Positions 1,926-20,494 of a DNA stretch of 64,000 nt are shown piece after piece. Position 1 is the stretch's first letter. Every line of letters begins with the position of its first letter. The position numbers and the translations under genes were made by a program. A model generated the notes under the pieces. It ran no database searches, was not told the DNA's origin, and saw only the letters and a program-made list of their open reading frames with translations. The stretch lies in IMG/VR virus record IMGVR_UViG_3300042940_001739, one strand, 5' to 3'. Source of the DNA: a virus (taxonomy: Duplodnaviria > Heunggongvirae > Uroviricota > Caudoviricetes).

Positions 1926-2135
1926 ATGAAAAGATACACTCACAAACATGTTTATGTATATCAGTTCGAGTTATCAGGTCGAGACAGTTCTAGAGTAGAA
2001 CATGAATATACATTGTGTACTAATGTTGACAATCCTAATTGTAAAGAAAATAGAACTTTATTAGAATCAATGTTGCGATTAGTTTACGGGCATATGCCAA
2101 AAGGTGTTAAATTTTTATATGAAAAAGCATCATGA
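1926..2135 (+). CDS. Hypothetical small protein
   Basis: ORF directly preceded by the class II motif ttcattatattatagt. Confidence 0.3.
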   Translation: MKRYTHKHVYVYQFELSGRDSSRVEHEYTLCTNVDNPNCKENRTLLESMLRLVYGHMPKGVKFLYEKAS

Positions 2136-2536
2136 CAAAAGTAGCAGTTATAGGAAGCACGGGTTGGCAGAATAAAAGAAAAGTCCAACAAACATTGCAA
2201 GAACTAAAAAAGAAATTTCAAGATGATTTAGTAGTTATTGGCGCCGGTGGCAATGAAGGAGCTAATCATATGGTTAGAAAGTACTCAATTGAATTCGGAA
2301 TTGAGTATAAAGAATTTAATCCATCTTTTTCAGGATTTAATTTATATTCAGCAATGCCAGAATCATATTATGGTAAAGCATATCATTTTAGTCAATTACA
2401 TCATCGAATGAAACTTATCGCACAACAATGTGATTATATGATGATATTAACTACAGAGACAGCGTTAGATCCTGTATTAAAGACAGCATTCACAAATGTC
2501 AAAAAATTAGAAAAACCGGTGGTTATCTTAGGATAA
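2132..2536 (+). CDS. Hypothetical protein, Rossmann-like (possible SLOG/DprA-like fold)
   Basis: VAVIGSTGW...VVIGAGGNEGA glycine-rich loops. ATGA overlap with the upstream ORF. Confidence 0.3.
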   Translation: MTKVAVIGSTGWQNKRKVQQTLQELKKKFQDDLVVIGAGGNEGANHMVRKYSIEFGIEYKEFNPSFSGFNLYSAMPESYYGKAYHFSQLHHRMKLIAQQCDYMMILTTETALDPVLKTAFTNVKKLEKPVVILG

Positions 2537-2566
2537 TCATATTTATATTAAAGTTATAAGGAAAAA

Positions 2567-4057
2567 ATGGAGTTACCAAAGTTACAAAAGATTGACCCTA
2601 ACAAGCCGCAAAAAAAGAAAATTTTGTTGTTAGGCGATGATTTTCGATTACCTTCTGGAATTGGAACAGTTAGTAAAGAGATTATTTTAAATACAGTTAA
2701 AGAGTTTGATTGGATTCAATTAGGAGCTGCAATTAATCACCCAGATGCTGGCCAAGCATTTGACTTATCTCAAGAAATTGCAAAAGAAACTGGAGTTGAA
2801 GATGCCTCAGTTAAATTGATTCCTTGGAACGGTTATGGAGATAGAAATATTCTATTTGCAATTATTAATCAAGAACAGCCAGATGCAATTCTTCATTTTA
2901 CTGACCCTCGTTATTGGACATGGCTATATGCAATTGAGCATGAGATAAAAACAACATTCAATATTCCAATTACATATTATTCAATTTGGGATGATTTACC
3001 ATATCCTATGTGGAACGCGCCATTTTATGCTAGTTGTGATATGATTATGGGAATTAGTAAGCAATCAGATAATATACATAGAGAAGTTCTTAAACAGAAC
3101 GGTATTCCAGTAATTAATTATGATGAAGGCGATTCATTACCGATGGATAAGAAATGGAATCAGGTTTTAACTGGTTATGTGCCACACGGATTGAATCATA
3201 ACATATTTAAGCCATTATCTGCATCAGACGATCTTTTGATTTCAATGAAGAAACAAATCAAAGAAACGCATAAAGTTGATTTCGTTGTAATGTGGAATAA
3301 TCGTAATATTCGTAGAAAACAACCAGGAGATGTAATTTTAGCATTTAAAACGTTTGTAGATAAATTACCAGAAGAACAACGTAGCAAAGTAGCATTGTTA
3401 ATGCATACACAGCCAGTAGATGAAAATGGAACAGACCTAAGAGCTGTTTGGAAGACATTAGCACCTGATTGTAAAGTTATCTTTTCAGAACAAAAAATGT
3501 CTGCACAAGATCTTAATGCAATGTATAATGTAGCAGATGTTGTAGTTAATATCGGATCAAATGAAGGATGGGGACTTAGCTCAACTGAAGCAATCTTATC
3601 AGGAACACCGATTATTAACAATGTAACGGGTGGATTACAAGACCAATGTGGTTTTGAAGATGAACATGGTAATTGGCTTAGATTTGATGGTGAATTTTCA
3701 ACTAATCACACCGGGAAATTTAAAAAACATGGATTATGGGTTCAACCAGTATTCCCTAGCAATAGATCATTGCAAGGATCACCACAAACACCTTATATTT
3801 TTGATGATCGAGTAAAATTTGAAGATGTAGCAGAAGCAATAGCATATTGGTACAATATGACAGAAGAAAATCGTACTGCTGCTGGATTTGAAGGTAGAAC
3901 ATGGGCGTTAGCTAATGGGTTGACAGCAGAACAAATGGGTAACAAAATGATATCAATGTTCCGCGACTTATTTTCAATGCATAGAGAATTAAGACCGTTA
4001 TTTACGGTAACAAAAGTTGAACCAACAAGATATCAATTAACAGGAATTGTAGAATAA
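2567..4057 (+). CDS. Glycosyltransferase, GT-B fold (GT1/GT4-like)
   Basis: EGWGLSSTEAILSGTPII matches the EX7E-type donor-binding motif of group-1 glycosyltransferases. Confidence 0.55.
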   Translation: MELPKLQKIDPNKPQKKKILLLGDDFRLPSGIGTVSKEIILNTVKEFDWIQLGAAINHPDAGQAFDLSQEIAKETGVEDASVKLIPWNGYGDRNILFAIINQEQPDAILHFTDPRYWTWLYAIEHEIKTTFNIPITYYSIWDDLPYPMWNAPFYASCDMIMGISKQSDNIHREVLKQNGIPVINYDEGDSLPMDKKWNQVLTGYVPHGLNHNIFKPLSASDDLLISMKKQIKETHKVDFVVMWNNRNIRRKQPGDVILAFKTFVDKLPEEQRSKVALLMHTQPVDENGTDLRAVWKTLAPDCKVIFSEQKMSAQDLNAMYNVADVVVNIGSNEGWGLSSTEAILSGTPIINNVTGGLQDQCGFEDEHGNWLRFDGEFSTNHTGKFKKHGLWVQPVFPSNRSLQGSPQTPYIFDDRVKFEDVAEAIAYWYNMTEENRTAAGFEGRTWALANGLTAEQMGNKMISMFRDLFSMHRELRPLFTVTKVEPTRYQLTGIVE

Positions 4058-5289
4058 TGAGAAAAGTAGTTATAGCGTCGCCAGTAGCGACACAGTCAGG
4101 ATATGGTCATCATGCACGTGAAATTATCACAAACATTATTGAACAACGCGGCAAAGAATGGGATGTTAAATTAGTTTCATTACCGTGGGGACATACCCCA
4201 ATGACATATCCAATATCAGTAGATTTACAACTTCGTATTATTCCATTGCCATTACAAGAACAACCTGATATTTGGATTCAAGTTTCAGTTCCAAATGAGC
4301 TTCAAGCAGTAGGTAAATATAACATAGGAGTCACTGCGGGAACTGAAGGAAGTATTTGTCCTGCAGAATGGATTGACAAACTAAATGCAATGAATTTAGT
4401 AATTGTCCCGAGCGAATTTACAAAGTCAGTATTTGAAGAAACTGCAAAACAATCTAATAAAGTAATAACTACTAAAATTGAAGTAGTACCAGAATATTTT
4501 GATGAAACAGTTTATACAAACAAACAAGTTAAAAACTTAGATGAGTTAAATTCAATTGAAGAGGATTTTGCATTTTTATCAGTTGGACATTGGCTTCAGG
4601 GTCAACCCGGAGAAGATCGTAAAAACGTTAGTGGATTAGTTCATACATTTTTAAATACATACCAAGGAAAAAAAGATGCACCTGCATTAATATTAAAAAC
4701 GAGTGGTGCTACTTATAGTATCATGGATCGAATGGATATTGAGGATCGTATCAATCAAATTAGAAGCATGTTTGCTACAACGAAACTACCTAATATATAT
4801 TTAGTGCACGGCGAGTTAACTGATGATGAAATGAATTCATTATACAATCACTCTAAAGTTAAAGCAATGGTATCATTTACTAAAGCTGAAGGATTCGGCC
4901 GACCATTATTAGAATTTGCATCAACAGGTAAACCAATTATCGCTCCACACTATTCAGGACAAGCAGACTTCCTTAAGAAAGATTTTATTTGTGCATTACC
5001 TGGAGCACAAACTCCAATACACCAATCAGCTCAAAATGAGTTTTTAATTGAAGGTGCAACATGGTTTACTCCAGATTATGGATATGCTGGTAAAATGATG
5101 CAGGAGATACAAAAGAATTACAAGAAATGGTTAGAGCTAGGAAAAAGACAACGCTATTTTGTGACTTCATCATTTACTAAAACTGCAGTAGCAGAAGTAT
5201 ATGAACGTATATTATCTGATATTGATTCAGGAATAGAATCTATTCCAATGGCGATGCAATTAAAACTTCCTAATTTAGAAACACTATGA
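4057..5289 (+). CDS. Glycosyltransferase, GT-B fold (group 1)
   Basis: AEGFGRPLLEFASTGKPII motif. Start overlaps the stop of the previous gene. Confidence 0.55.
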   Translation: MRKVVIASPVATQSGYGHHAREIITNIIEQRGKEWDVKLVSLPWGHTPMTYPISVDLQLRIIPLPLQEQPDIWIQVSVPNELQAVGKYNIGVTAGTEGSICPAEWIDKLNAMNLVIVPSEFTKSVFEETAKQSNKVITTKIEVVPEYFDETVYTNKQVKNLDELNSIEEDFAFLSVGHWLQGQPGEDRKNVSGLVHTFLNTYQGKKDAPALILKTSGATYSIMDRMDIEDRINQIRSMFATTKLPNIYLVHGELTDDEMNSLYNHSKVKAMVSFTKAEGFGRPLLEFASTGKPIIAPHYSGQADFLKKDFICALPGAQTPIHQSAQNEFLIEGATWFTPDYGYAGKMMQEIQKNYKKWLELGKRQRYFVTSSFTKTAVAEVYERILSDIDSGIESIPMAMQLKLPNLETL

Positions 5290-5933
5290 AAATAACATAT
5301 GCATTAACAGTTTGTAATGAGTTTATTGAAATACAAACACTCATTACATTCTTGTTGAAAAATAAAAGATTATATGATGAAATTGTAGTGCAAATGGATC
5401 TTAACGTGGATGACATGAAAAATCAACCAGAAGATAAGAAACAAGTGTTTGCTTATATCATGAAGCTTCAAGAACATGGTCAATTAAGAGTAATATTTCA
5501 TCAATTGAATAATGACTTTGCAGCATTTAAAAATCATTTAACAGATCAATGCAACGGAGATTATATCTTCCAGATTGATGCTGATGAATTACCACACAAA
5601 AAACTTATAGAAGTTTTACCATTTGTATTAGAAGAAAATGATGATTGTGAAGTATTTTTAGTACCAAGAGTTAATACAGTAGAAGGTTTGACTTTAGGAC
5701 ATATCAACAAATGGCGTTGGAATGTAAATGATGCGGGATGGATTAACTGGCCAGATAACCAATGGCGCATTTGGAAAAAGAAACCAGAAATCAAATGGAT
5801 TAATAAAGTTCATGAAAAATTAGATGGGTTTAAAACGTGGACAATATTACCAGAAATGGAAGAGTTTGCATTATATCATCCAAAAGAAATTGAAAGACAG
5901 GAAAAACAAAACGAATATTACAACACATTATGA
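5286..5933 (+). CDS. Putative GT-A (family-2-like) glycosyltransferase
   Basis: N-terminal ITYALTVCNE resembles the GT2 N-terminus, plus a DADE (DxD-like) motif. Weak. Confidence 0.35.
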   Translation: MKITYALTVCNEFIEIQTLITFLLKNKRLYDEIVVQMDLNVDDMKNQPEDKKQVFAYIMKLQEHGQLRVIFHQLNNDFAAFKNHLTDQCNGDYIFQIDADELPHKKLIEVLPFVLEENDDCEVFLVPRVNTVEGLTLGHINKWRWNVNDAGWINWPDNQWRIWKKKPEIKWINKVHEKLDGFKTWTILPEMEEFALYHPKEIERQEKQNEYYNTL

Positions 5934-6421
5934 TAAATACAATACAACATTTAGAAAATCATTACCCAGCATTTCAAGCACAAGGCAATGCAGCACAATT
6001 TGCAATACCGTTTGCTAAACATGTATGTTCTGGAACTGGCGTAGATGTCGGATGCAATCGAGAAGAATGGAAATTCCCAGGAGCATATGCGGTAGACCCA
6101 GCAATTAATGATTATGATGCATTAAACTTTCCGTATGATAATTTAGATTATATTTTTAGTTCACATTGTTTAGAACATTTAACTAGTTGGGTAGATGTTT
6201 TAGATTACTGGACATCTAAATTAAAAAGTGGAGGAGTATTATTTTTATATTTACCTGATTATTCACAATCATATTGGAGACCATGGCATAATAGAAAACA
6301 TTTGAATATATTTACGCCAACTATCATTAAAGACTATATGCATGACAATGGTTATACAAATATATTTTCAAGCGGCGTTGATTTGAATAATGCATTTATG
6401 ATTATGGGCGAGAAAAAGTAA
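5930..6421 (+). CDS. Class I SAM-dependent methyltransferase
   Basis: VDVGCNREEW (motif I-like) and LEHL...GGVLFLYLPD (type-11 methyltransferase pattern). Confidence 0.5.
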   Translation: MINTIQHLENHYPAFQAQGNAAQFAIPFAKHVCSGTGVDVGCNREEWKFPGAYAVDPAINDYDALNFPYDNLDYIFSSHCLEHLTSWVDVLDYWTSKLKSGGVLFLYLPDYSQSYWRPWHNRKHLNIFTPTIIKDYMHDNGYTNIFSSGVDLNNAFMIMGEKK

Positions 6422-7056
6422 TGAATAATAAATTACATATCATCACAGGATATACTGAAAATATAAAACAGTTATCTGATTTATCATATGACAGTTTGCA
6501 AAAGTATTGCAATTTGCATAATATCAATCATACGCGGTATCTTATAACAGAAACAGAACGACCGCCTAGCTGGTATAAAGTTAAATTGATATTGTCAGAG
6601 TTTGAAAAAGGAGCAGAATATGTAATGTGGGTTGATTCTGACACAACAGTTATTAATTTTGATTTTAATATTTTAGATTTATTAGATGACTCTAAGATTT
6701 ATTTAAGTAAAGATATTAATGGTATTAATTGCGGTATAATGATTTGGAAAAAATCTGATACATCAATTGAGATATTAAACAAAGTCTGGTCGCTCACTGA
6801 ATTTATAAATCATAATTGGTGGGAGCAAGCAGCATTTAGAAGTTTATATGATGTAAATTTTAATGATTTACAAAATATTACAAAAATAATTAACCAGCAT
6901 GACCTAAATTCATATGACTATAATTTATATGGAATGCATTACCCAGAAGGCCAATGGTCAGCAAGTTCATTTTTAATACATTTTCCTGGGCTTTCAAATG
7001 AACGACGAATACAATTAATTAATCAATTTAAAGAACAATATGATATATCAAACTAA
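6421..7056 (+). CDS. Nucleotide-sugar transferase with DXD motif (GT32-like)
   Basis: WYKVKLILSEFEKGAEYVMWVDSDTTVI resembles the sugar-binding DXD region of GT32/capsule-synthesis transferases. Confidence 0.4.
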   Translation: MNNKLHIITGYTENIKQLSDLSYDSLQKYCNLHNINHTRYLITETERPPSWYKVKLILSEFEKGAEYVMWVDSDTTVINFDFNILDLLDDSKIYLSKDINGINCGIMIWKKSDTSIEILNKVWSLTEFINHNWWEQAAFRSLYDVNFNDLQNITKIINQHDLNSYDYNLYGMHYPEGQWSASSFLIHFPGLSNERRIQLINQFKEQYDISN

Positions 7057-7579
7057 CCCAATAGTAGCAATGGATCGTAATCACATACATTTGATCCACG
7101 CATTAATAACATGTAATAAACCAGAATCAGTGTTAGAAATTGGAATTGGCTCTGGGCTTGTAACAAATTCTATTATAGACGCATTTAATTATAATCAACA
7201 ACAAGTAAATTTAACGTGTGTTGATAATTTTTTAGACTGGAATGGCAACGCACCTATAGGATTTGAACGATTCCAGGATTCTATAAAATTTATTCACTCA
7301 AACGAAAAAGATTTTGTATCAACACACAAGTTAACGTATGATTTTATAGTTTCAGATGCTGACCATCATCATACAAATGAATGGGTTGATAAAACATTTA
7401 ATTTACTAAACCCAAATGGTATATTAATTTATCATGATGTAACAAATAAAGATTTTCCAAATCTATTTGAAATAATTCAGTTTGCTAAAAACAACAAAAT
7501 TAGATATTCATTATTCAATAAAAGTAGTTTATCTGATGAACGATGTGAACGAGGTTTATTGGTAATTTATAAAGATTAA
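7040..7579 (+). CDS. Class I SAM-dependent (O-)methyltransferase
   Basis: VLEIGIGSGLVTN (motif I) and FIVSDADHHH...NGILIYHDV. Confidence 0.5.
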   Translation: MIYQTNPIVAMDRNHIHLIHALITCNKPESVLEIGIGSGLVTNSIIDAFNYNQQQVNLTCVDNFLDWNGNAPIGFERFQDSIKFIHSNEKDFVSTHKLTYDFIVSDADHHHTNEWVDKTFNLLNPNGILIYHDVTNKDFPNLFEIIQFAKNNKIRYSLFNKSSLSDERCERGLLVIYKD

Positions 7580-7580
7580 T

Positions 7581-8300
7581 ATGATTACAGTTAAACATTC
7601 CGGAAATGTTGGTGATATTATATATTCATTGCCAGTAGTTATGCATTTAAGTAAACTCGAAAATAAGAAAATTAGATTTTATTTGAATCCAATTGACAAC
7701 CGAATGTCATTAGAATTAGCTAATGTTTTAAAACCATTATTAGATCATCAGGATTATATAGAATCAGTTGAAATATATAATAATGAACATGTTGATTATG
7801 ATTTAGATTTATTTAGAACAATGCATACGCCTGCAGGTAATTTAGGCGAATTACATGCTAAAGTTTTTGATTATGATTTTTCAATATTAAACGAACAATC
7901 TATTTTTATCGATGATTCATATAATGCAAATTTGCCAATATATGATATTATTATTAATCGTACGGAACGATATAATAATCCAAAGTTTCCATGGCAAGAT
8001 ATTTTAAATACACAATATGCAAATCACACTAAATGTTTTGTAGGAACTAGATTAGAATATGAATTGTTTATCGAAACTTATAATTTTTCTGATATAGATT
8101 ATATACCAACAACAGACTTTTTACAAGTTGCTTGGTTGATAAAAAATTCAAAAATATTCATAGGCAACTGTAGTTCGCCATATGCTATTGCAGAAACAAT
8201 GAAACATACATCTATACAAGAATCTTGTCAATGGTGTTTAACATGTTTATATAAACGACCGAATGCATATTACTTTATCAATGAGATTATACAATTATGA
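7581..8300 (+). CDS. Hypothetical; possible GT9 (heptosyltransferase-like) glycosyltransferase
   Basis: N-terminus ITVKHSGNVGDIIYSLPVVMHL resembles the GT9 RxxxxGDxxxxxP motif. Weak. Confidence 0.3.
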   Translation: MITVKHSGNVGDIIYSLPVVMHLSKLENKKIRFYLNPIDNRMSLELANVLKPLLDHQDYIESVEIYNNEHVDYDLDLFRTMHTPAGNLGELHAKVFDYDFSILNEQSIFIDDSYNANLPIYDIIINRTERYNNPKFPWQDILNTQYANHTKCFVGTRLEYELFIETYNFSDIDYIPTTDFLQVAWLIKNSKIFIGNCSSPYAIAETMKHTSIQESCQWCLTCLYKRPNAYYFINEIIQL

Positions 8301-9439
8301 CAAATAACATTTCATTACTAGTAGGCTTAAAAAATAATTTAGACTACAATAAACATTTTTACGAAACAACGAGAACATTGTATCCAGATGTAGAAATATG
8401 TTTTGTAAGTTATGGATCGACTGACGGAACTCACGAATGGTTAGAAACATTATCAGATAACAATTTGAATTATTTTTATTCAACTGAAAATAAAACATTT
8501 TCTGATACATTTAATAAAGCAGCAGAGTTAGCAACAAATGATTATGTAGCATATCTTCATAATGATATTGTGTTAGCACCAGGATTTATTGAAAATTTAG
8601 AAAAACACGTATCTGAAAATAATGTAGTTGCATATACCACAATAGAGCCGCCTATATTCGCAGATCATGAGCGTCCTGGTAAAATTATATATGATTTAGG
8701 TGACTCGTTAGAGACGTTCGATAAAGATGCTTTATATGAATTTGTTAAACAAGAACAATTAAAGTATTTAGACAAAACAGAGCCAGGCATTACGTTTTTT
8801 ATGTGTATGCCTAGAGCTAAATTGTTAGATATTGGAGGTATGGATAATTTATTCAATCCAATGTTCTGTGAAGATGATGATTTAATTCGTCGTTGGAAAA
8901 TGTTAGGGATGAATTGTTTTACTGCATTAGATTCCATATGTTATCACTTTGTTAGCAAGACATCTAGATTTTCTGAAGAATACCAAAATAGAACTCAGCA
9001 GATTGAACTAGCTTCTAATAGAAATTATATTAGAAAATGGGGAACTAAATCAAATGCCCCTAAATATGATATTGCAATTCAAGTTAAAGGATGTAATATG
9101 CAATTATTAGAATTGTTAGAACCATATTGCAATAGAATTTTTATTGATGATGAAATGGAAGTTTTATTTTCATATTATTATGAAACTGAACAACCTAAAA
9201 CTAAGTTTGATTTAAAAACTAGAATCAACACTCAAGGATATGATGTTCCGAGTGATTATCATGATATAGTTGTTGAATGTAATAAAAATTCATTTGGACA
9301 ACAAGAATTTGTTTATATAGTTCAACTTCCAGAAATTATAGAACAAAGCGGAGAGTTAGGAACATTTAAACTAGGAAACCTAACAATTACAATCAATCAT
9401 TTAAACACATACGAAAAAAATCTCGTTAATATCGAATAA
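8297..9439 (+). CDS. Putative family-2 glycosyltransferase
   Basis: Beta-strand-rich N-terminal domain with YLHNDIVL and an EDDD acidic motif. ATGA overlap with the upstream gene. Confidence 0.4.
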   Translation: MTNNISLLVGLKNNLDYNKHFYETTRTLYPDVEICFVSYGSTDGTHEWLETLSDNNLNYFYSTENKTFSDTFNKAAELATNDYVAYLHNDIVLAPGFIENLEKHVSENNVVAYTTIEPPIFADHERPGKIIYDLGDSLETFDKDALYEFVKQEQLKYLDKTEPGITFFMCMPRAKLLDIGGMDNLFNPMFCEDDDLIRRWKMLGMNCFTALDSICYHFVSKTSRFSEEYQNRTQQIELASNRNYIRKWGTKSNAPKYDIAIQVKGCNMQLLELLEPYCNRIFIDDEMEVLFSYYYETEQPKTKFDLKTRINTQGYDVPSDYHDIVVECNKNSFGQQEFVYIVQLPEIIEQSGELGTFKLGNLTITINHLNTYEKNLVNIE

Positions 9440-9509
9440 AACCATATTTATAATAAAGTTACTCTTAATAACTAGTTACGCCATTAATAATTTATAAAAA
9501 AGGAAAAAA

Positions 9510-10996: not shown

Positions 10997-11418
10997 TGAA
11001 AACAATTCCACTAACAATATCACTTTTAGCAACAACGACCATGACATTCATCGGTACATATTTTTATAATCTTACAATGGATTACTCCGATCAGTACTTG
11101 GGGTTGATCGCTGTGGTGTTGTTTGATGGGTTTTTTGGAATTATAGCAGGAACAAAACGAGAGGGCTTTCAAACATGTAAGGCCCTCAAAGTTTTACGTA
11201 CAGCAGTTACATGGGTCATACTTTTAACGGTATTGTTATTAGTCGAAAAAGGTTTTAAAGGTACGTCGTGGTTGAGTGAAACAATATTAGTACCATTCAT
11301 GGTATTTCAGTTATTAAGCGCCTTGAAGAATGCTTCAATGGCTGGTTTTATTAAAACAGAAGTATTAAACCGCATCATGGATGCATTTGACAAACACAAA
11401 GGAGAAAGAACCGAGTGA
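10996..11418 (+). CDS. Multi-pass membrane protein, holin-like
   Basis: Three or four hydrophobic helices in 140 aa, adjacent to lysis genes. Confidence 0.4.
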   Translation: MKTIPLTISLLATTTMTFIGTYFYNLTMDYSDQYLGLIAVVLFDGFFGIIAGTKREGFQTCKALKVLRTAVTWVILLTVLLLVEKGFKGTSWLSETILVPFMVFQLLSALKNASMAGFIKTEVLNRIMDAFDKHKGERTE

Positions 11419-13337
11419 AACACGTAACAAGATTATTATTATTTTTATTAGCATTTATCCCAATGCTAAGTTTTGGACAATCTGGACCACCAGCTCCAAG
11501 TACTGGTATTTGGGCTATTATCGATACAACTTATACAGTTGGAACAACAACTCAAGGGGTAACAGAAGCTAAATTAACTTTAAAGAATACAACATTAACA
11601 AAATACACTGGTGTCCAGTTTAGAGTATTCTATGATAAAGTAGCATTCGTAAATGCATCAGTCGCACTATTAGGTACCACTACGAACCTAGATATGCAAC
11701 AAGTAGTAAATGCAGCAAATGGATATATCACAGTAACATTGGTATATACTGGTTCAAGCTCTACTTATACATTAGCTGATCAAGAAACATTTAAAATTAC
11801 ATTTACACACGCAGCACAATCGGTATTCAACAACTTGACGTCAATTGATGACTTAACTTGGACTGGAGTTCAAACATTCCCACAAGGAGCGGCAGCACAA
11901 GACGGATCAGACGTAACATTAGGATTACATTCATATGGTGGTGAATTCATATTCCAAAATTTTGATTATCACGGAACATTTACTAACGTTACAGGAACAC
12001 CTGCTAAAAACTTAACATTAGCATTAGAGAAACGTCCTGCAACGGGTGGTAGTTGGACACAAGTAAATACTTATACAACTGATATCAATGGCGACTTTGC
12101 AATTTCAGAACCAATTGATACAACTTATTGGGATGTTCGTTTAGCAATACAAGGCGATACAATGTTAGCAGGAAATGTTATTTCAACTTCGGATGCACAA
12201 CTTGTTAATCAATGGGTATTAGGAACATCAACAATGTCTGGATTTGATTATTATGCAGCAGATGTAAATGGATCTAACAATACTACAATAGCAGATGCAT
12301 ATGGTGTATTTGGTAGAGTATCAGGAAGATTCTCTGTATGGCCTAACAACGTACAAGACGTTAAATTCTTTACAGCAACAGAATATGCAACAATTAACGG
12401 TTCAGCAACCAACTACACTGCAACAATACCAGGCGCAACTAACTTTACATTTGACATTGTACCAGGAGCACCTGATTCAGTTGTATATTATGTAGCAGTA
12501 CCAGGTGATGCAAATGGAACAGGTTACCATATGGCACGTATTACTCCAATTGAAATTTTAATTGATCCAACACCTGGAGTTGAATCTCAAATTTACAATG
12601 TTATTGACAACAAAGTAGAATATGATTTTGCAACTTCACAAATTGAGGTTAATGTACCAAGATTAACAGTTCAAGAAGGAAACGTAGTTAATATACCAGT
12701 AAAAGTGTTTACAAATGGCATTGATTTGAATGCATTGCAATTTGGATTGAAATATGATCCAGAACTATTATCATTTAGTGGTGTTTATGCAACTTCTAAT
12801 GCAACAGAGTGGTTAACTTATATTAATCCTAATGATGGACAAGTTGATTGGGGAGGCTATGACGTCACTGATAATAAAAGTCCATTAAAAGACGGCGACG
12901 AGGTTATTACAATGCAATTTGTAGCATTAAAACCACAAGCACAATGGGATAACAGTCCTTTGTCAACAACTGACAAATTTGCAGGTAGAGCAGGAACATC
13001 TAAAGACTTAACAATTACTCCAACTAATGGAATTATCCAAGTAGTTAAAATGAGTGACAATGTTATTTCAATTGATAACAATAGTATGCAAATTGTACCT
13101 AACCCAGTTAAAGATGTTGTAACAATTGTATTCAATGTATTAGAACCAACAAATGCATCGTTAACAATTAGAGATTTACAAGGAAGATTATTAATGGATA
13201 TTGTCTCAGGTCAAATACCACAAGGACAATTTTCATATCAAGCTAATTTAGGTAAATTAGCAACAGGTTTATATATTGCAACACTTTCAATGGAAAATGG
13301 AGTGTTTATAGCAGAAAAATTAGTAAAACAGGATTAA
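11415..13337 (+). CDS. Secreted protein with T9SS type-A C-terminal sorting domain (Por_Secre_tail)
   Basis: N-terminal signal peptide (LLLFLLAFIPMLSFGQ) and a C-terminal ~80 aa matching the T9SS CTD (NPVKDVVTIVFNV...LTIRDLQGRLL...GLYIATLSMENGVFIAEKLVKQD). Confidence 0.65.
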   Translation: MKHVTRLLLFLLAFIPMLSFGQSGPPAPSTGIWAIIDTTYTVGTTTQGVTEAKLTLKNTTLTKYTGVQFRVFYDKVAFVNASVALLGTTTNLDMQQVVNAANGYITVTLVYTGSSSTYTLADQETFKITFTHAAQSVFNNLTSIDDLTWTGVQTFPQGAAAQDGSDVTLGLHSYGGEFIFQNFDYHGTFTNVTGTPAKNLTLALEKRPATGGSWTQVNTYTTDINGDFAISEPIDTTYWDVRLAIQGDTMLAGNVISTSDAQLVNQWVLGTSTMSGFDYYAADVNGSNNTTIADAYGVFGRVSGRFSVWPNNVQDVKFFTATEYATINGSATNYTATIPGATNFTFDIVPGAPDSVVYYVAVPGDANGTGYHMARITPIEILIDPTPGVESQIYNVIDNKVEYDFATSQIEVNVPRLTVQEGNVVNIPVKVFTNGIDLNALQFGLKYDPELLSFSGVYATSNATEWLTYINPNDGQVDWGGYDVTDNKSPLKDGDEVITMQFVALKPQAQWDNSPLSTTDKFAGRAGTSKDLTITPTNGIIQVVKMSDNVISIDNNSMQIVPNPVKDVVTIVFNVLEPTNASLTIRDLQGRLLMDIVSGQIPQGQFSYQANLGKLATGLYIATLSMENGVFIAEKLVKQD

Positions 13338-14425: not shown

Positions 14426-16036
14426 GTGAAATATATCATAGCATTTGTACTAGGGTTAGTAGCATTTAACCTCAACGCACAGAACTATGTTTATTCTTAT
14501 ACAGACCCTTGCACAGGTGTAATAAAAACTATTACAGTTCCCATTAATGGATCGATATCAGTTTCTTATTACGGTGAAGTTGGAACATTTAGTGGACAAG
14601 ACTTTCAGAATGGAGTTTTTGAAACTTGGGCAAATCAAAAGTTGTCTCAATATCAAAACATTTCTCCTTGTTCACAAATTGTCGGAGTTGCAACAACGGT
14701 TGGTGTGACTCAGTCGACTGCTATTAATACTTTGAGTATTTTAAACTCATTGTCAGCATTAGCAGATATGGCAGGCGCAACTAACATGTTAGGGGGTGCA
14801 GTAAACACAGTAAATGGGAGCTCTAGCTCTGAAAGTAATAATAACGAAAACGAAGAACAAAATGGAAATAATTCTAATAGTAGTGGGACTAGCAGTAGTG
14901 GTAATAACGGCACTAGTTCTAGCAACGTGGGAGGATCGACGAACACGCAAGTATCAGGCACAACGCAAAGCACGGGAACAAGTACAACTGCGTCAGGAAC
15001 GCAAACAACGGGAAGCGGATCAAGTAATCCTAGCTCCGAACCCACAAGCAGCTCTTCTAGTAGCACAACTACAGGAACAACTTCACAAGAAGGAAGCACA
15101 GGAAGTGAAACTACAACAGGAAGCACAGGAAGCGAAACTAGTTCAGGAACTACAAGCACTGAACCAACAAGTACAGGAAGTGACCCAGGAAGTCAAAGTG
15201 GTACTGGAGGGAACGGAGAAAATGGCACCAGCGGTGGAAATGGTAGCAGTGGAAGCACTAGTGAAACCCAAACGCAAGAAACGCCAACCACGCAAGAAGA
15301 AACCAGCAAAACAAATATAACCGGAGGTAGTACAAATACCATTCGTGGTTCAACTACAACAACAGGCTCACCTAAAAGCAAAAATGGGAATGGAGCTCCA
15401 GCAGTAATTGCATCTGCAGATTTTGTAGGATTTAATTTTAGAGATTCAGAAGTAACTACCGGTTTAAAAGCTACTGGTGGTTATACTGCTTTACGATGGG
15501 ATGGTAAACGTAGTTGGGGAGGATTATTAGATTATACATCAGCTTTGAAAGGCCCTAATGCAACGGGATTCTATGCGTGGATCAAACCAGGGCGTGTCAC
15601 TTTATTATCCGGCACTTTAACAGTAGGTTTCGAAGGACGGGGAACAATATACGGTACAATCTCTGGAGGTCAAATGATGTCCTTTAAGAAGGTTAAAAAC
15701 TTAAAGGTAGTTTATATGGCTACGGTATCATATGGTGCTGTATATCAAACACCATTCTTAGGTACAGCTGTAATTGCTGGAGGGATGTATGATTTCAAAA
15801 TAGGAAAACGAATTGACATCAAATTAATGGACCTTATGGTTTATTCTCCATATGTAAGTTATTATAATGATGTTGTAATGAAATCTCCTTATGTAATGAT
15901 TCCTAGCATCGGAACAAATATTAGCATAACAAGAAAATTCAAATTTAATATTAATGCAGGTGGAGCTTGGTCATTAGGTCAATCTACTTTAAACTATACA
16001 GTAACATGCGGAACAAGATTATTAGTTGGGCAATAG
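14426..16036 (+). CDS. Secreted protein with ~170-aa Ser/Thr/Gly/Asn-rich low-complexity linker and beta-rich C-terminal domain
   Basis: GTG start after a class II motif. Signal peptide IIAFVLGLVAFNLNAQ. Mucin-like STG tract encoded by 14800-15330. Confidence 0.5.
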   Translation: MKYIIAFVLGLVAFNLNAQNYVYSYTDPCTGVIKTITVPINGSISVSYYGEVGTFSGQDFQNGVFETWANQKLSQYQNISPCSQIVGVATTVGVTQSTAINTLSILNSLSALADMAGATNMLGGAVNTVNGSSSSESNNNENEEQNGNNSNSSGTSSSGNNGTSSSNVGGSTNTQVSGTTQSTGTSTTASGTQTTGSGSSNPSSEPTSSSSSSTTTGTTSQEGSTGSETTTGSTGSETSSGTTSTEPTSTGSDPGSQSGTGGNGENGTSGGNGSSGSTSETQTQETPTTQEETSKTNITGGSTNTIRGSTTTTGSPKSKNGNGAPAVIASADFVGFNFRDSEVTTGLKATGGYTALRWDGKRSWGGLLDYTSALKGPNATGFYAWIKPGRVTLLSGTLTVGFEGRGTIYGTISGGQMMSFKKVKNLKVVYMATVSYGAVYQTPFLGTAVIAGGMYDFKIGKRIDIKLMDLMVYSPYVSYYNDVVMKSPYVMIPSIGTNISITRKFKFNINAGGAWSLGQSTLNYTVTCGTRLLVGQ

Positions 16037-17715
16037 TATTGCTGTCAGCATTTTCACTTAATGCACAAAGTGTTATCGCCCCAGGAGCTACATCATATAA
16101 CCAAAACACATCAAATCAAAGTGCAACAGGATTTTCGGTAACAGGTTTTACCCCGGCAGCTACTTTATTGGTTACTGTTGGACTAGTTAATCCACCAGCT
16201 GGAACAACTCTTAGATTTTCAACTACAGCAGGCGTTTCTGCAAGTACAGGATATACATTAACATCTAATTTTACTAGAATTAGTTTCACAGGAACTCAAG
16301 CAAATGTTAACACAGTATTAGCATCATTACAAGTAAACACCGGATCAACACCAGGAAATCTATATATAGCAGTAACTGCAACTGAAAATCCTACAGGCTA
16401 TTTTTATTTACCATCAAATGGTCACTTTTATAAACCGGTAGCTAGCGGCACAACATATACTAACGCAAAAGCAACAGCATTAAATACAACATTTAAAGGA
16501 CAGCAAGGTTATTTAGTAACTATCACATCACCTGATGAAGATGCCTTTATTTATAATAACGTTCCGCAATCTCAAATATGGTTTGCGTTATCAGATGCAG
16601 CACAAGAAGGATATTGGAGAATAGATGCCGGCCCAGAAAATGGAACTTTAATTAAAACAGCGAATGGACAGTATGCCGGAAACATTGCTAGTCAATATAA
16701 CAACTGGGCCGGAGGAGAACCTAACAACTCAGGCGGCGAACATTATGCGGTAACTAAATGGAACGGCTCTCAATGGAACGACTTACCTAATAGTTTCTCT
16801 TGTCCTTATGTAATTGAATATGGAACGTGGTCAGATCCAGGAAATCAAACATTTACGAATTTCTATACAGGATTCGTTACTCATCAGATTGCATGTAGCC
16901 CGGCAACATCGCCAACAGCACCAACCGGAACAGATGGATCTAGATCATTAGCTGGAACAGTTTCATTGTCAGCAGCTGCACCTGCAGGTAGCACAGTAGA
17001 TTGGTATGCTAATGCAATGGGTGGCAATGTTATATCGGGAGGATTTGGAACATTATCATTTACAACTCCTAGCATTTCAGCAACAACAACTTATTATGTT
17101 CAGGCTAGAAATTCAACAACGGGTTGTGTTAGTTCATCAAGAACTGCAGTAGTAGCAACAGTAAATTACCCAACACCATTTATTCATTCAGGATTCGTTT
17201 ATGGGTCTGAAGGAGTTGGTATATCTAATATACCAGTAAAGTTGTATAGAAAATTAAATGCAGAAACTAATTATACATTACACGGAACATATACAACAAC
17301 AAGCAACGGGCAATTTAATATAACAACTACTTTAGATATTGCATCGTATAATTTTCAAATAGTAATTGATAATTTAACAATTGCAAATCCAACTGTTAGT
17401 GATGCTCAATTTTTCAATCAAAAGATTTTATCACAAGGTTTTAGTTCTAAAGACTATTATAGATTGAATACTAATAACAATGCTATATTAACCATTGCAG
17501 ATGTTTATGAAGTATATCAAAAAACTTATAGTATACCATGGAATAATGGAGTTCCAACATATAGATTATTTAATCAATCAGAATGGAATATAATCAACTC
17601 ATCAACAACTGATTTAAGAACAACTTACCCAGGACTTCAAAGTTTAACAATACAAAGTCCTACTAATAATGGAACATCAAATATTTATTTAATAAGGACA
17701 GGATATGCGAATTAA
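16006..17715 (+). CDS. Secreted C-type-lectin-domain protein (possible receptor-binding/adhesin)
   Basis: Signal peptide MRNKIISWAIVLLSAFSLNAQS. CTLD signature WFALSD..EGYWRIDAG...YNNWAGGEPNNSGGEHYAVTKWNGSQWNDLPNSFSCPYVIEYG. The track start of 15967 is likely too early. Confidence 0.6.
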   Translation: MRNKIISWAIVLLSAFSLNAQSVIAPGATSYNQNTSNQSATGFSVTGFTPAATLLVTVGLVNPPAGTTLRFSTTAGVSASTGYTLTSNFTRISFTGTQANVNTVLASLQVNTGSTPGNLYIAVTATENPTGYFYLPSNGHFYKPVASGTTYTNAKATALNTTFKGQQGYLVTITSPDEDAFIYNNVPQSQIWFALSDAAQEGYWRIDAGPENGTLIKTANGQYAGNIASQYNNWAGGEPNNSGGEHYAVTKWNGSQWNDLPNSFSCPYVIEYGTWSDPGNQTFTNFYTGFVTHQIACSPATSPTAPTGTDGSRSLAGTVSLSAAAPAGSTVDWYANAMGGNVISGGFGTLSFTTPSISATTTYYVQARNSTTGCVSSSRTAVVATVNYPTPFIHSGFVYGSEGVGISNIPVKLYRKLNAETNYTLHGTYTTTSNGQFNITTTLDIASYNFQIVIDNLTIANPTVSDAQFFNQKILSQGFSSKDYYRLNTNNNAILTIADVYEVYQKTYSIPWNNGVPTYRLFNQSEWNIINSSTTDLRTTYPGLQSLTIQSPTNNGTSNIYLIRTGYAN

Positions 17716-18575: not shown

Positions 18576-18611
18576 TTTGTATTTACGGATTATTTTCATT
18601 ATAATATCAGT

Positions 18612-18962
18612 ATGAACTATAAATACATTATAACTGCCTATATCATGTTTATGGTAGGCCAAGCGGTTGTCTGGGTACAAACAAATGGACCTATCTTATG
18701 GCCATGGGCTAAACAATGGAAATTTCCATTAATGCTTTTAGGGATTCCTATTACATGGCTGTTTATGGAAGCAACTAACTATGTTGTTAAAGGATTCGAT
18801 GGCGCTTTTTGGCCCGGAAGATTTATGTCATTTACTGCAGGAATTCTTATTTTTACTGTTATGACGTACGTTTTTAAATCAGAAGGAATAAATTTAAAGA
18901 CCATGGTATCGTTAGCATTAGCATTTGCATTAATTTTAGTACAGCTCTTTTGGAAGTCTTGA
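18612..18962 (+). CDS. Multi-pass membrane protein
   Basis: Four hydrophobic segments in 116 aa. Class II motif upstream. Confidence 0.4.
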   Translation: MNYKYIITAYIMFMVGQAVVWVQTNGPILWPWAKQWKFPLMLLGIPITWLFMEATNYVVKGFDGAFWPGRFMSFTAGILIFTVMTYVFKSEGINLKTMVSLALAFALILVQLFWKS

Positions 18963-18974
18963 TATTTATAATAG

Positions 18975-20330: not shown

Positions 20331-20494
20331 AGGCTTAGGTGACGACATTAAAAAGATTACTTCAGCAACGGGGTTAGATCAATTAGCAAAAAAGATAGCA
20401 CAACTACTAGATGAAGATTGTGGGTGTGATGACAGACAAACTTGGCTCAATGATAAAACAAAGAATTGGCCTATTTATAAAAAAAGGAATTTAG

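What the first reader, a model, noticed from the sequence alone, without database searches (positions are those of the whole stretch)
2567..9439. Seven-gene glycosyltransferase/methyltransferase cluster in a lytic-phage context
In order: two GT-B group-1 glycosyltransferases, a GT-A-like gene, a SAM methyltransferase, a DXD/GT32-like transferase, a second SAM O-methyltransferase, a GT9-like gene and a GT2-like gene, tightly overlapping (ATGA junctions) behind a class III motif. That is enough enzymology to assemble and methylate an oligosaccharide. Possible targets are virion proteins (glycosylated capsids or tails), host surface polysaccharide or O-glycoproteins (receptor masking or superinfection exclusion), or a DNA hypermodification pathway. 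The nearby secreted Ser/Thr-rich protein (14426..16036) would be an obvious O-glycosylation substrate in a Bacteroidota host, which glycosylates at D(S/T)(A/I/L/V/M/T) sites.
Basis: partly seen in the sequence, partly recalled or inferred. Interest (0 to 1): 0.7.

Follow-up and report, generated by a model that had tools for sequence, protein, structure and literature searches.

The report
Late-expressed variable glycosylation island in phage
A large lytic phage of freshwater Bacteroidota carries eight tightly packed sugar-transferase and methyltransferase genes behind a late-gene promoter. Their outer part is swapped wholesale between close relatives, so they most likely put a strain-specific sugar coat on phage particles, not on DNA.

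Summary
2567-9439 holds eight (not seven) co-directional, overlapping genes: two GT-B/GT4 transferases with intact EX7E motifs, a GT2, a SAM methyltransferase, a GT34-like DXD transferase, a second methyltransferase, a compact GT9-fold protein and a GT2 with a C-terminal extension.

The window is part of a roughly 160-kb T4-like phage of Bacteroidota that is abundant in metagenomes.

In 65 related loci, g1-g2-g3 and the left flank are conserved. Everything after g3 is hypervariable: 150 protein clusters, mostly nucleotide-sugar enzymes, GT2s and methyltransferases. None is a multi-pass membrane protein.

A conserved motif containing TATTTATA precedes the cluster. In the cultured relative Flavobacterium phage immuto, the same octamer precedes terminase, portal, sheath, tube and tape-measure genes, and also its own GT cluster. 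I therefore read it as a late promoter.

Published LC-MS of immuto DNA found only dA, dC, dT and fdPreQ1. The window's ThyA is canonical. DNA glycosylation is therefore unlikely.

The nearby Ser/Thr-rich protein has no D(S/T)(A/I/L/V/M/T) sequon, and its position beside the cluster is not conserved.

Best reading (about 0.5): cytoplasmic glycosylation of phage, probably virion, proteins with a cassette-variable, methylated oligosaccharide. Remodelling of host surface glycans remains a live rival.

The parts
2538..2556 (+). Late-type promoter-like motif CATATTTATATTAAAGTTA. Its 3' end (2556) lies 10 nt before the g1 start codon (2567), inside the 30-nt gap after the upstream gene.
   Evidence: One of two exact matches in the window. 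TATTTATA is present upstream of g1 in 85 of 90 related loci. In phage immuto the same octamer sits 9-70 nt upstream of ORF starts in 21 of 30 cases (binomial P 4e-16), including terminase, portal, sheath, tube, hub and tape-measure genes and its own GT cluster.
2567..4057 (+). g1: 496-aa GT-B/GT4 glycosyltransferase, a conserved core gene
   Evidence: Pfam Glycos_transf_1, just below the gathering cut-off, and PHROG 2170 at 7e-20. EX7E at 333-341. Best solved relative is chlorovirus NY-2A B736L, 9e-10 by phmmer and 7e-13 by profile. 74-92% identical in 80 IMG/VR loci, 46% in immuto, 41-53% in Mel-JY01, 28% in RM378.
4057..5289 (+). g2: 410-aa GT-B/GT4 glycosyltransferase, a conserved core gene always found next to g1
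   Evidence: Pfam Glycos_transf_1 at 6e-7 and PHROG 2170 at 1.5e-19. EX7E at 278-286. Its only PDB hit is B736L. It is adjacent to g1 in immuto, Mel-JY01 and RM378.
5286..5933 (+). g3: 215-aa GT2 (GT-A, DXD) glycosyltransferase, the last conserved core gene
   Evidence: Pfam Glycos_transf_2 at 3e-8. DAD motif at residue 104. Present in 51 of 65 related loci, 54% identical in immuto.
5930..6421 (+). g4: 163-aa SAM methyltransferase, a cassette gene
   Evidence: Methyltransf_23 at 6e-12. Found in only 6 of 65 related loci, yet 64% identical in Mel-JY01.
6421..7056 (+). g5: 211-aa GT34-like DXD glycosyltransferase, a cassette gene
   Evidence: Glyco_transf_34 at 6e-12, 46 bits against a 23-bit cut-off. 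DSD motif at residue 78. Not found in any of the 65 related loci. GC 27%.
7040..7579 (+). g6: 179-aa SAM methyltransferase, probably a sugar O-methyltransferase, a cassette gene
   Evidence: Methyltransf_24 at 2e-9 and Methyltransf_3 at 2e-3. Motif I LEIGIGSG. Unique to the window among the 65 loci.
7581..8300 (+). g7: 239-aa compact GT9-fold protein, a putative glycosyltransferase and a cassette gene
   Evidence: No HMM hit. AlphaFold pLDDT 96.1. Foldseek top hits are GT9 3tov, WaaC, WaaF and TibC at E 1e-6 to 1e-5. It has 81 homologues, one named a heptosyltransferase. Found in 2 of 65 loci.
8297..9439 (+). g8: 380-aa GT2 with a C-terminal extension of about 130 aa, the right-hand end of the island
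   Evidence: Glycos_transf_2 at 1e-15. 36% identical over 395 aa to the last gene of the immuto cluster (gp169). A 390-395-aa orthologue is also the last large island gene before the endolysin in L095, L096 and L099.
9443..9461 (+). Second copy of the motif (CATATTTATAATAAAGTTA). It marks the right boundary and the start of the lysis cassette (88-aa membrane protein, GH19 endolysin, holin).
   Evidence: TATTTATA lies within 120 nt upstream of the 88-aa gene in 30 of 69 related loci.

Best explanation
The cluster is one allele of a cassette-type glycan locus carried by an abundant lineage of roughly 160-kb T4-like phages of Bacteroidota.

Shown:
- There are eight soluble enzymes: six glycosyltransferases of four fold families and two SAM methyltransferases.
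- They are translationally coupled and lie behind a conserved motif which, in a cultured relative, marks virion structural genes.
- The first three genes are conserved. The rest are exchanged wholesale between close relatives for other transferases, methyltransferases and complete nucleotide-sugar pathways.

Inferred:
- The operon is transcribed late, together with the structural genes.
- The conserved retaining GT4 pair g1-g2, plus the GT2 g3, recognises a conserved phage-encoded acceptor in the cytoplasm and lays down the inner sugars.
- g5, g7 and g8 add outer sugars, and g4 and g6 O-methylate them.
- This allele carries no sugar-nucleotide synthesis genes, so the donors are ordinary host NDP-sugars.
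- The acceptor is most likely one or more virion proteins (capsid, decoration, tail or fibre), so that particles leave the cell with a strain-specific methylated oligosaccharide coat.
- Cassette turnover then gives phage 'glycotypes', analogous to O-antigen serotypes. The selective agent is unknown; candidates are adsorption or aggregation properties, proteases, host or grazer lectins, and glycan-targeting defences.
For: (1) Enzyme identities and intact catalytic motifs.

(2) Late-type motif. It occurs at 2538 and again at 9443 before the lysis cassette. It lies upstream of g1 in 85 of 90 loci. In immuto, TATTTATA precedes the terminase (119017), portal (120621), sheath (147026), tube (149201), hub (149798), tape-measure (150801) and tail-spike (95200) genes, and the small ORF heading its GT cluster (48955). 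In total 21 of 30 occurrences lie 9-70 nt upstream of an ORF start, P 4e-16.

(3) No export machinery. None of the 150 cassette protein clusters has more than two hydrophobic segments and only four have any, so there is no Wzx, Wzy, WaaL, GtrA/C or polyprenyl-phosphate transferase. The Pfam census is dominated by epimerase/dehydratase, GDP-mannose dehydratase, RmlC/D, DegT, hexapeptide acyltransferases, GT2 and methyltransferases.

(4) The g1-g2 pair behaves like a phage core gene. It is adjacent and in the same order in immuto (Flavobacterium), Mel-JY01 (listed host Microcystis) and RM378 (Rhodothermus), and g1 alone was also found in a 484-kb uncultured phage. At least 8000 homologue clusters were found, and the best 120 all lie on contigs of at most 166 kb. 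An acceptor shared across hosts of different phyla is more easily a phage component.

(5) DNA is excluded in the nearest cultured relative, and the window's ThyA is canonical.

(6) The nearest solved structure to both g1 and g2 is the chlorovirus GT B736L. Chloroviruses and Megavirinae glycosylate their own capsids and fibrils with virus-encoded, clade-specific GT/MT clusters (PMC9614988).

(7) Precedent: GT plus methyltransferase genes in actinobacteriophages go with glycosylated capsid and tail-tube proteins (Freeman 2023, as summarised). The best out-of-lineage phage hit to g2 is a GT placed between the tail terminator and the tail chaperones of Arthrobacter phage Kitkat (weak, E 8e-5).

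(8) Cassette turnover and low GC. There are 26 architectures in 46 loci. At 80-90% g1 identity, 119 of 204 locus pairs share no cassette gene. g5-g8 are 26-29% GC against 36% for the window.
Against: - No acceptor has been identified, and no virion gene lies in this window.
- Timing is inferred from a motif, not from transcription data.
- The same motif also precedes the lysis cassette, GroEL and a lectin-domain gene of the exported-protein block, so 'late' does not by itself mean 'virion'.
- Glycosyltransferases that extend undecaprenyl-linked host glycans are also soluble or peripheral, so the absence of membrane proteins only shows that the phage brings no export machinery of its own.
- The acceptor of B736L is itself unknown.
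- The LC-MS evidence is from immuto, which shares only g1, g2, g3 and g8 at 36-54% identity, not from this phage.
- The listed host of Mel-JY01 was not verified.
- Similar GT and sugar islands in cyanomyoviruses are conventionally read as host cell-surface modifiers.
Confidence: 0.5

Rival explanations
1. Remodelling of host envelope glycans. The phage transferases act at the cytoplasmic face on host undecaprenyl-linked O-antigen, capsule or general O-glycan intermediates. The host's own flippase and ligase or oligosaccharyltransferase then export the altered glycan. This would mask receptors, giving superinfection exclusion or protecting progeny from cell debris, or would alter recognition by grazers.
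For: The enzyme families are those of LPS, capsule and O-glycan synthesis. Methylated sugars are typical of Bacteroidota O-glycans (my own knowledge). Hypervariability could track host glycan diversity. This is the standard reading of the comparable cyanomyovirus islands. GTs that act on lipid-linked acceptors need no transmembrane segment. The phage also encodes several exported proteins with T9SS C-terminal domains, so it does engage the host envelope.
Against: No initiating phosphoglycosyltransferase, flippase, polymerase, ligase or Gtr-type component occurs in any of the 150 cassette clusters. The operon has a late-type promoter shared with structural and lysis genes, which leaves little time for export to matter in a lytic cycle. 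The g1-g2 pair is conserved in phages whose listed hosts belong to different phyla with unrelated surface glycans. No lysogeny genes were seen in the window.
Confidence: 0.22
2. Glycosylation of phage-encoded exported or cell-surface proteins rather than of the virion. Candidate substrates are the Ser/Thr-rich signal-peptide protein at 14426-16036 and the proteins with T9SS C-terminal domains. This would resemble the cytoplasmic GtfA/GtfB glycosylation of serine-rich adhesins, or HMW1C/TibC glycosylation of adhesins.
For: The 536-aa protein has a signal peptide and a linker that is 48% Ser/Thr. Two GT4 enzymes side by side recall GtfA/GtfB (my own knowledge). g7 resembles, among other proteins, the protein heptosyltransferase TibC. 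In immuto a late-type motif also precedes the C-type lectin gene that heads the homologous exported-protein block.
Against: The protein has zero D(S/T)(A/I/L/V/M/T) sequons. Its immuto homologue is about 35 kb from that phage's GT cluster. No homologue was found in Mel-JY01 or RM378, which have g1-g2. A bulky cytoplasmic glycan is hard to reconcile with Sec export in a Gram-negative host. Both g1 and g2 keep EX7E, unlike the non-catalytic GtfB (the comparison is from my own knowledge).
Confidence: 0.1
3. DNA hypermodification: an oligosaccharide is built on a hydroxylated or hydroxymethylated pyrimidine, or on another modified base, of the phage genome.
For: Phage GTs related to LPS enzymes, heptosyltransferase-like ones included, can put mono- to trisaccharides on 5hmC. 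5hoC is arabinosylated or hexosylated in several phages. The cluster lies next to the replication module and a PD-(D/E)XK nuclease. g1 gives a weak match to the Pfam family 'GT4 in conflict systems'.
Against: The window's only thymidylate-synthase homologue is 53% identical to E. coli ThyA and keeps L143, C146, D169 and N177, the residues that differ in hmC and hoC synthases. It lies about 25 kb away from the cluster. No C5-methyltransferase or TET-like dioxygenase was found. LC-UV-MS of immuto DNA shows canonical dA, dC and dT plus fdPreQ1 replacing dG, with no glycosylated nucleoside. Six GTs plus sugar O-methylation exceeds anything in the DNA-glycan papers read here, which report at most trisaccharides. 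T4 DNA glucosyltransferases are early genes (my own knowledge), whereas this operon has a late-type promoter.
Confidence: 0.04

Closest known systems
Virion glycosylation in actinobacteriophages (Che8, Corndog, Myrna; Freeman et al. 2023, known here only through citing papers)
   Same: Lytic-cycle, phage-encoded soluble glycosyltransferases plus O-methyltransferases. They are thought or shown to decorate capsid and tail proteins in the cytoplasm without lipid carriers.
   Different: Those clusters have 2-4 genes in roughly 50-150-kb phages of Actinobacteria. Here there are eight genes (up to about 17 kb in relatives), a conserved GT4 pair plus an exchangeable cassette, a T4-like phage of Bacteroidota, and only weak sequence relationship. 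No virion glycan has been demonstrated.
Glycosylation gene clusters of giant viruses (chlorovirus capsid N-glycans; clade-specific fibril glycan clusters of Megavirinae; PMC9614988)
   Same: Virus-encoded, host-independent machinery: GTs, sugar methyltransferases and rare-sugar nucleotide pathways. Cluster content differs between clades. g1 and g2 are closest, among solved structures, to chlorovirus B736L.
   Different: Those are eukaryotic viruses with multidomain GTs. Their variation is between clades, not between near-identical genomes. The acceptor of B736L is unknown.
'LPS / cell-wall synthesis' gene islands of large cyanomyoviruses (P-SSM2, S-SCSM1, S-SCSM2R; PMC12801897)
   Same: Many GTs and NDP-sugar epimerases or dehydratases clustered in a large aquatic T4-like phage, with function untested.
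   Different: They are read there as host-surface or DNA modifiers, with no promoter, cassette or DNA-composition evidence. No sequence orthology to g1 or g2 was seen in the phage collection.
Bacterial O-antigen and capsule loci
   Same: Conserved flanks, low-GC exchangeable cassettes of GTs, methyl- and acyltransferases and NDP-sugar pathways, and many 'serotype' alleles in one lineage.
   Different: No Wzx/Wzy or ABC transporter, no initiating transferase and no ligase. The locus is in a lytic phage under a late promoter.
Phage DNA glycosylation gene clusters (T-even glucosylation; 5hmC glycans of Pyle et al.; arabinosyl- or hexosyl-5hoC of Lee et al.)
   Same: Phage GT-A and GT-B enzymes related to LPS enzymes, sometimes several per cluster with NDP-sugar genes, located near replication genes.
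   Different: Those need a ThyA-type hydroxylase or hydroxymethylase, or a 5mYOX. None is present here, and the DNA of the cultured relative is not glycosylated.
Gtr-type and other seroconversion modules of temperate phages
   Same: Phage-encoded glycosyltransferases that change a surface glycan. g8 gives a weak hit to the GtrB-like PHROG.
   Different: Those modules consist of 1-3 genes with integral membrane GtrA and GtrC, and they act during lysogeny. No membrane components and no lysogeny genes were seen here.

Membership tests
Phage DNA-glycosylation gene cluster | A source of a hydroxyl-bearing base: a ThyA homologue with N177D and L143D/E (hmC) or D169N (hoC), or a 5mYOX/TET dioxygenase, with or without a C5-methyltransferase, usually nearby | tested here: not met
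   The window's ThyA (33857-34834) keeps L143, C146, D169 and N177 and is 53% identical to E. coli ThyA (criteria). No such genes were found among the ORFs scanned. About 100 kb of the genome lies outside the window and was not seen.
Phage DNA-glycosylation gene cluster | Glycosylated nucleosides in virion DNA | tested here: not met
   Not measurable for this phage. For the cultured relative immuto, which carries g1, g2, g3 and g8 homologues, published LC-UV-MS shows dA, dC, dT and fdPreQ1 only.
Lipid-carrier surface-polysaccharide locus (O-antigen, capsule, or seroconversion module) | An initiating polyprenyl-phosphate transferase, a flippase or ABC transporter, and a polymerase or ligase, or GtrA/GtrC membrane proteins | tested here: not met
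   A hydropathy scan of the 150 cassette clusters plus g3-g8 found none with more than two hydrophobic segments. No such family appears among the 25 commonest Pfam families of the census (only the top 25 of 105 families were visible).
Lipid-carrier surface-polysaccharide locus (O-antigen, capsule, or seroconversion module) | A variable, low-GC cassette of GTs and NDP-sugar genes between conserved flanks | tested here: met
Phage virion-protein glycosylation system (actinobacteriophage type) | Phage-encoded soluble GTs, with or without an O-methyltransferase, expressed in lytic growth | tested here: met
   Six GTs and two methyltransferases, all soluble. The late-type promoter motif is shared with the structural genes of immuto. 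Timing is inferred from the motif only.
Phage virion-protein glycosylation system (actinobacteriophage type) | Glycans demonstrated on capsid or tail proteins, dependent on the phage GTs | not testable with these tools
   This needs virion glycoproteomics and GT knock-outs. No acceptor was identified in silico.
CAZy GT4 (retaining GT-B) | A GT-B C-terminal Rossmann domain with the EX7E motif | tested here: met
   g1 has EGWGLSSTE at 333-341 and g2 has EGFGRPLLE at 278-286, both inside the Glycos_transf_1 match. The full-length AlphaFold model of g1 was of low confidence (pLDDT 59), so the N-terminal domain is unverified.
CAZy GT9 (heptosyltransferase-like) for g7 | The GT-B fold of WaaC/WaaF type, plus sequence-family membership and an ADP-heptose donor | tested here: inconclusive
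   Fold match with TM-score 0.6-0.66 normalised to the query, Foldseek probability 1.0. However, g7 has only 239 aa against about 320-350, has no Pfam or NCBIfam hit, and the donor is unknown.
   A signal peptide is present, but there are zero sequons in 536 residues.

The most novel reading that the evidence does not exclude
An abundant lineage of freshwater and brackish T4-like phages of Bacteroidota coats its own virions with a phage-made, O-methylated oligosaccharide. The outer structure is encoded by an exchangeable cassette, so near-identical phages exist as many 'glycotypes'. This would be a viral counterpart of O-antigen serotypes, made entirely in the cytoplasm without lipid carriers, on a conserved inner core laid down by the g1-g2-g3 enzymes.
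Probability: 0.4. Interest if true: 0.78.

Novelty: new variant of a known kind. Interest (0 to 1): 0.6.

Why it matters
Virion glycosylation by phage-encoded enzymes has so far been shown mainly in actinobacteriophages. If it also occurs in an abundant aquatic T4-like lineage, and in cassette-variable form, then particle surface chemistry is a fast-evolving trait under strong diversifying selection. That bears on phage-host specificity, particle stability and aggregation, recognition by lectins, grazers or defence systems, and on how 'auxiliary metabolic' LPS-like genes in environmental phage genomes are interpreted.

The locus also offers a large natural library of soluble glycosyltransferases, sugar methyltransferases and rare-sugar pathways. 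Over 150 protein clusters were seen in 65 loci.

The question is directly testable, because a relative carrying the conserved core, Flavobacterium phage vB_FspM_immuto, is in culture.

Tried and rejected
- Near-identity DNA search of 10-34 kb against GenBank phages found nothing. Only the distant mode found relatives.
- g7 gave nothing by Pfam, PHROGs, NCBIfam, tblastn against phages, or profile search against PDB sequences. Only structure prediction resolved it.
- g5 gave no PDB sequence match.
- The AlphaFold model of g1, built from a shallow alignment of relatives at 75% identity or more, was poor (pLDDT 58.8). I therefore ran no fold search on it and used a profile search against PDB sequences instead.
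- The strict two-part motif TATTTATA-N(2-7)-GTTAYA does not occur in immuto. Only the octamer is shared.
- I looked for co-occurrence of the Ser/Thr-rich protein with g1-g2 in cultured phages. It was found only in immuto, so I rejected it as the general acceptor.
- NCBIfam gave no equivalog-level match for any gene; all scores were far below the cut-offs. No donor or linkage specificity can be assigned.
- Two literature searches were badly framed and returned nothing useful. The Freeman 2023 paper and the journal version of Pyle 2024 are not held. Freeman is cited only through papers that summarise it.
- The Pfam census of cassette genes shows only the 25 commonest of 105 families. The absence of rare families rests on the hydropathy scan.

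Full report
WHAT IS THERE

The interval 2567-9439 contains eight co-directional ORFs, not seven:
- g1: 2567-4057, 496 aa
- g2: 4057-5289, 410 aa
- g3: 5286-5933, 215 aa
- g4: 5930-6421, 163 aa
- g5: 6421-7056, 211 aa
- g6: 7040-7579, 179 aa
- g7: 7581-8300, 239 aa
- g8: 8297-9439, 380 aa

They are packed with three ATGA overlaps, two 1-nt overlaps, one 17-nt overlap and one 1-nt gap.

- g1 and g2 match Glycos_transf_1 and the phage family PHROG 2170 'glycosyltransferase' (7e-20 and 1.5e-19). The Pfam score of g1 (26.1 bits) is just under the 26.4-bit gathering cut-off.
- g3 and g8 are GT2.
- g4 is Methyltransf_23 and g6 is Methyltransf_24.
- g5 is Glyco_transf_34 (46 bits against a cut-off of 23), so it is GT34-like rather than GT32-like.

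g7 has no sequence-family match at all. An AlphaFold model built on 41 homologues is confident (pLDDT 96.1). Its best structural matches are GT9 enzymes: 3tov, WaaC, WaaF, and the protein heptosyltransferase TibC.

Catalytic motifs are intact: EX7E in g1 and g2, DXD in g3, g5 and g8, and SAM motif I in g6. No gene reaches an equivalog-level match in NCBIfam, so donor sugars and linkages cannot be named.

GENOMIC CONTEXT

All substantial ORFs of the window are on one strand. They include a PD-(D/E)XK exonuclease, GH19 endolysin, holin, GroEL, RNA ligase, ThyA, DNA ligase, a sigma-70-family factor and five tRNAs.

The same sequence occurs on an 86.8-kb metagenome contig. Upstream of the window, that contig carries dUTPase and T4-type clamp-loader genes.

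The nearest cultured relatives are Flavobacterium phage vB_FspM_immuto (160 kb, with T4-like gp20 and gp23 structural genes) and the phage listed as Microcystis phage Mel-JY01. Both have a homologous GT cluster directly downstream of the same nuclease.

g1 homologues also occur in a 484-kb uncultured phage and in Rhodothermus phage RM378. In RM378 only the g1-g2 pair is present, in the same order.

The g1 family is very large: at least 8000 clusters at 90% identity. The best 120 hits are all on contigs of at most 166 kb. IMG/VR holds 203 loci encoding close relatives.

THE CLUSTER IS ONE ALLELE OF A CASSETTE LOCUS

I compared 65 related loci that contain g2:
- The left flank (clamp loader, nuclease, two small genes) and g1, g2 and g3 are conserved and syntenic. 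g1 is 74-92% identical.
- The genes after g3 fall into 150 different protein clusters, defined at 30% identity over 60% of the length.
- g4 is present in 6 loci and g7 in 2. g5 and g6 are found only in the window.
- Among 46 loci with at least five cassette ORFs there are 26 architectures.
- At 80-90% g1 identity, locus pairs share on average 11% of cassette clusters, and 119 of 204 pairs share none. At 98% identity or more they share 84%.

In relatives the cassette is often much longer. One contig has 17.4 kb from the start of g1 to the endolysin, against 7.2 kb in the window.

A Pfam census of one representative per cluster gave these counts:
- NAD-dependent epimerase/dehydratase: 14
- GDP-mannose 4,6-dehydratase: 12
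- RmlD: 12
- GT2: 10
- several methyltransferase families, including FkbM, TylF and sugar C-methyltransferases
- Polysacc_synt_2: 7
- hexapeptide acyltransferases: 6
- DegT aminotransferases: 3
- RmlC: 2

The locus therefore encodes glycan assembly plus rare-sugar donor synthesis. The window's allele is a short version: it has no donor-synthesis genes but two methyltransferases.

g5-g8 are 26-29% GC against 36% for the window.

A full-length g8 orthologue closes the island in immuto and in some IMG/VR relatives.

WHAT IS MISSING

A hydropathy scan found no protein with more than two hydrophobic segments in any of the 150 clusters. The scan did flag the window's holin and signal peptides, which serves as a positive control.

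There is therefore no flippase, polymerase, ligase, Gtr membrane component or polyprenyl-phosphate transferase. Whatever is built is built by soluble enzymes in the cytoplasm, and the phage brings no export machinery.

TIMING

A 19-nt motif, CATATTTATAWTAAAGTTA, occurs exactly twice in the window: just before g1, and just after g8 at the head of the lysis cassette. The motif is conserved in the short gap upstream of g1 across relatives whose flanks have diverged. The octamer TATTTATA lies within 260 nt upstream of g1 in 85 of 90 loci.

In the window, 6 of 8 plus-strand TATTTATA copies lie 9-70 nt upstream of an ORF start (P 4e-5). In immuto it is 21 of 30 (P 4e-16).

In immuto the genes behind the octamer include terminase, portal, tail sheath, tail tube, baseplate hub, tape measure, a tail spike and several neighbouring virion-module genes. 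They also include the small ORF that heads its GT cluster.

I therefore read TATTTATA as this lineage's late promoter, and the GT operon as a late transcription unit. This is an inference from motifs, not a measurement.

The same motif also precedes GroEL and lysis genes in the window, and a lectin-domain gene in immuto.

THE DNA HYPOTHESIS

Recent work shows that phage GTs can build mono- to trisaccharides on 5hmC (Pyle et al. preprint) and on 5-hydroxycytosine (Lee et al. 2026). All of these pathways need a hydroxylating or hydroxymethylating ThyA homologue or a 5mYOX dioxygenase.

The window's only ThyA homologue is 53% identical to E. coli ThyA. It keeps L143, C146, D169 and N177, the positions that change in hmC and hoC synthases. 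No C5-methyltransferase or dioxygenase was found among the larger ORFs.

Most directly, published LC-UV-MS of immuto virion DNA shows dA, dC and dT, with fdPreQ1 fully replacing dG and no glycosylated nucleoside (Cui et al. 2023). Immuto carries homologues of g1, g2, g3 and g8. I rate the DNA target at about 4%.

The protein at 14426-16036 has a Bacteroidota-type signal peptide, a linker that is 48% Ser/Thr, and a beta-rich C-terminal domain. However:
- It contains no D(S/T)(A/I/L/V/M/T) sequon.
- Its immuto homologue is about 35 kb from that phage's GT cluster.
- No homologue was found in Mel-JY01 or RM378.

Proximity in this window is therefore incidental, and the proposal is not supported.

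MOST LIKELY MECHANISM (about 0.5)

The operon is expressed late. The conserved retaining GT4 pair g1-g2, with the GT2 g3, recognises a conserved phage-encoded acceptor and lays down the inner sugars. Cassette enzymes (here g5, g7 and g8) add outer sugars, and g4 and g6 O-methylate them. The products are glycosylated phage proteins, most probably virion components.

Support:
- the late motif
- the purely soluble enzyme set
- conservation of g1-g2 as a phage core pair across phages assigned to hosts of different phyla
- exclusion of DNA as the target
- the fact that the nearest solved structure to both g1 and g2 is the chlorovirus GT B736L, from a group of viruses that glycosylate their own capsids with virus-encoded, clade-specific clusters that include sugar methyltransferases
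- the actinobacteriophage precedent, in which GT plus methyltransferase genes go with glycosylated capsid and tail-tube proteins
- a weak lead: the best out-of-lineage phage hit to g2 is a GT embedded between the tail terminator and the tail chaperones of Arthrobacter phage Kitkat

RIVALS

Remodelling of host surface glycans through host lipid carriers and exporters (about 0.22) is not excluded. GTs acting on lipid-linked acceptors are also soluble, and comparable cyanophage islands are conventionally read this way. Late expression, the total lack of initiating and export genes, and conservation of g1-g2 across host phyla all count against it.

Glycosylation of phage-encoded exported proteins (about 0.1) is weakened by the tests described above.

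The remainder covers free oligosaccharides, glycolipids and other small-molecule acceptors. I could not test these.

NOVELTY

GT-rich islands in large aquatic phages, and the immuto GT annotations, are already on record. As far as the held literature shows, the following are not described:
- the cassette architecture, with a conserved late promoter, a GT4-GT4-GT2 core and an exchangeable outer set
- its extreme allelic diversity within one abundant lineage
- the combination of evidence pointing away from DNA and towards a phage-protein acceptor

I class the finding as a new variant of a known kind. The functional claim is untested, but it is directly testable in a cultured relative.

Noticed in passing
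window 11415-13337, 15967-17715, 34831-36897: Three phage proteins look like type IX secretion cargo. They carry Por_Secre_tail plus cohesin; the CHU_C-associated Ig_7 domain plus a C-type lectin domain; and CHU_C plus SprB repeat plus PKD. A lytic phage may be exporting adhesin- or lectin-like proteins through the host T9SS, or these Ig-like domains may be virion decorations. Homologues exist in immuto.
   Followed up: partly
window 14426-16036: A 536-aa protein with a signal peptide, a low-complexity linker of about 210 aa that is 48% Ser/Thr, and a beta-rich C-terminal domain that looks like an outer-membrane barrel. It is conserved in immuto at 29% identity and has no Pfam or PHROG hit.
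   Followed up: partly
window 53543-54283 and the 51-57 kb block: A phage-encoded sigma-70-family factor with regions 1.2, 2 and 4. It lies in a block of small ORFs, each preceded by a repeated element AAGATTAGGAT...GCTTATCTTTATwATAAG. These are probably early promoters, and the sigma factor may direct a later promoter class.
   Followed up: no
window 18576-18611, 22085-22121, 24875-24920, 25246-25298, 26448-26584, 41663-41699, 43006-43088, 45472-45520: A second promoter-like class, GGTTGGA...TTTCTTATTATATAGAAAATAA, lies upstream of many genes.
   Followed up: no
window 33857-34834 versus immuto 26884-28155: The window's ThyA is canonical at 325 aa, with two insertions relative to E. coli. The immuto orthologue is about 100 aa longer: the alignment spans 429 columns. 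This may be an insertion or a fused domain.
   Followed up: no
window 60808-62187 and 42388-43005: Extra cell-wall enzymes lie apart from the lysis cassette: a fusion of GDSL lipase/acylhydrolase, peptidoglycan-binding domain and phage lysozyme, and an SLT transglycosylase.
   Followed up: no
window 25299-26447 and 26585-28696: A pair consisting of an AAA+ ATPase (CobS/MoxR-like, PHROG 'porphyrin biosynthesis') and a 703-aa protein with a weak CobT/VWA match, as seen in many large phages.
   Followed up: no
window 2132-2536: A 134-aa SLOG/YAcAr-like protein (weak PF10686 match) lies immediately upstream of the late motif and g1. It is conserved at 67-93% identity in nearly all window-clade loci but absent from immuto and Mel-JY01.
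   Followed up: partly
L002 (PP395634.1, Microcystis phage Mel-JY01) 8810-15059: A phage deposited with a cyanobacterial host shares g1 (split into two ORFs), g2, g3 and g4 with this Bacteroidota-phage lineage, g4 at 64% identity. It also shares the nuclease and the endolysin, at 54%. Either cassette genes move between very different phages, or the host assignment deserves checking.
   Followed up: no
L087 (immuto) 18607-37015: Immuto carries a complete 7-deazaguanine (fdPreQ1) DNA-modification pathway. No homologue of QueC, QueD, QueE, FolE, DpdA or QueF was found in this 64-kb window. Whether the window's phage modifies its guanines is therefore open.
   Followed up: partly
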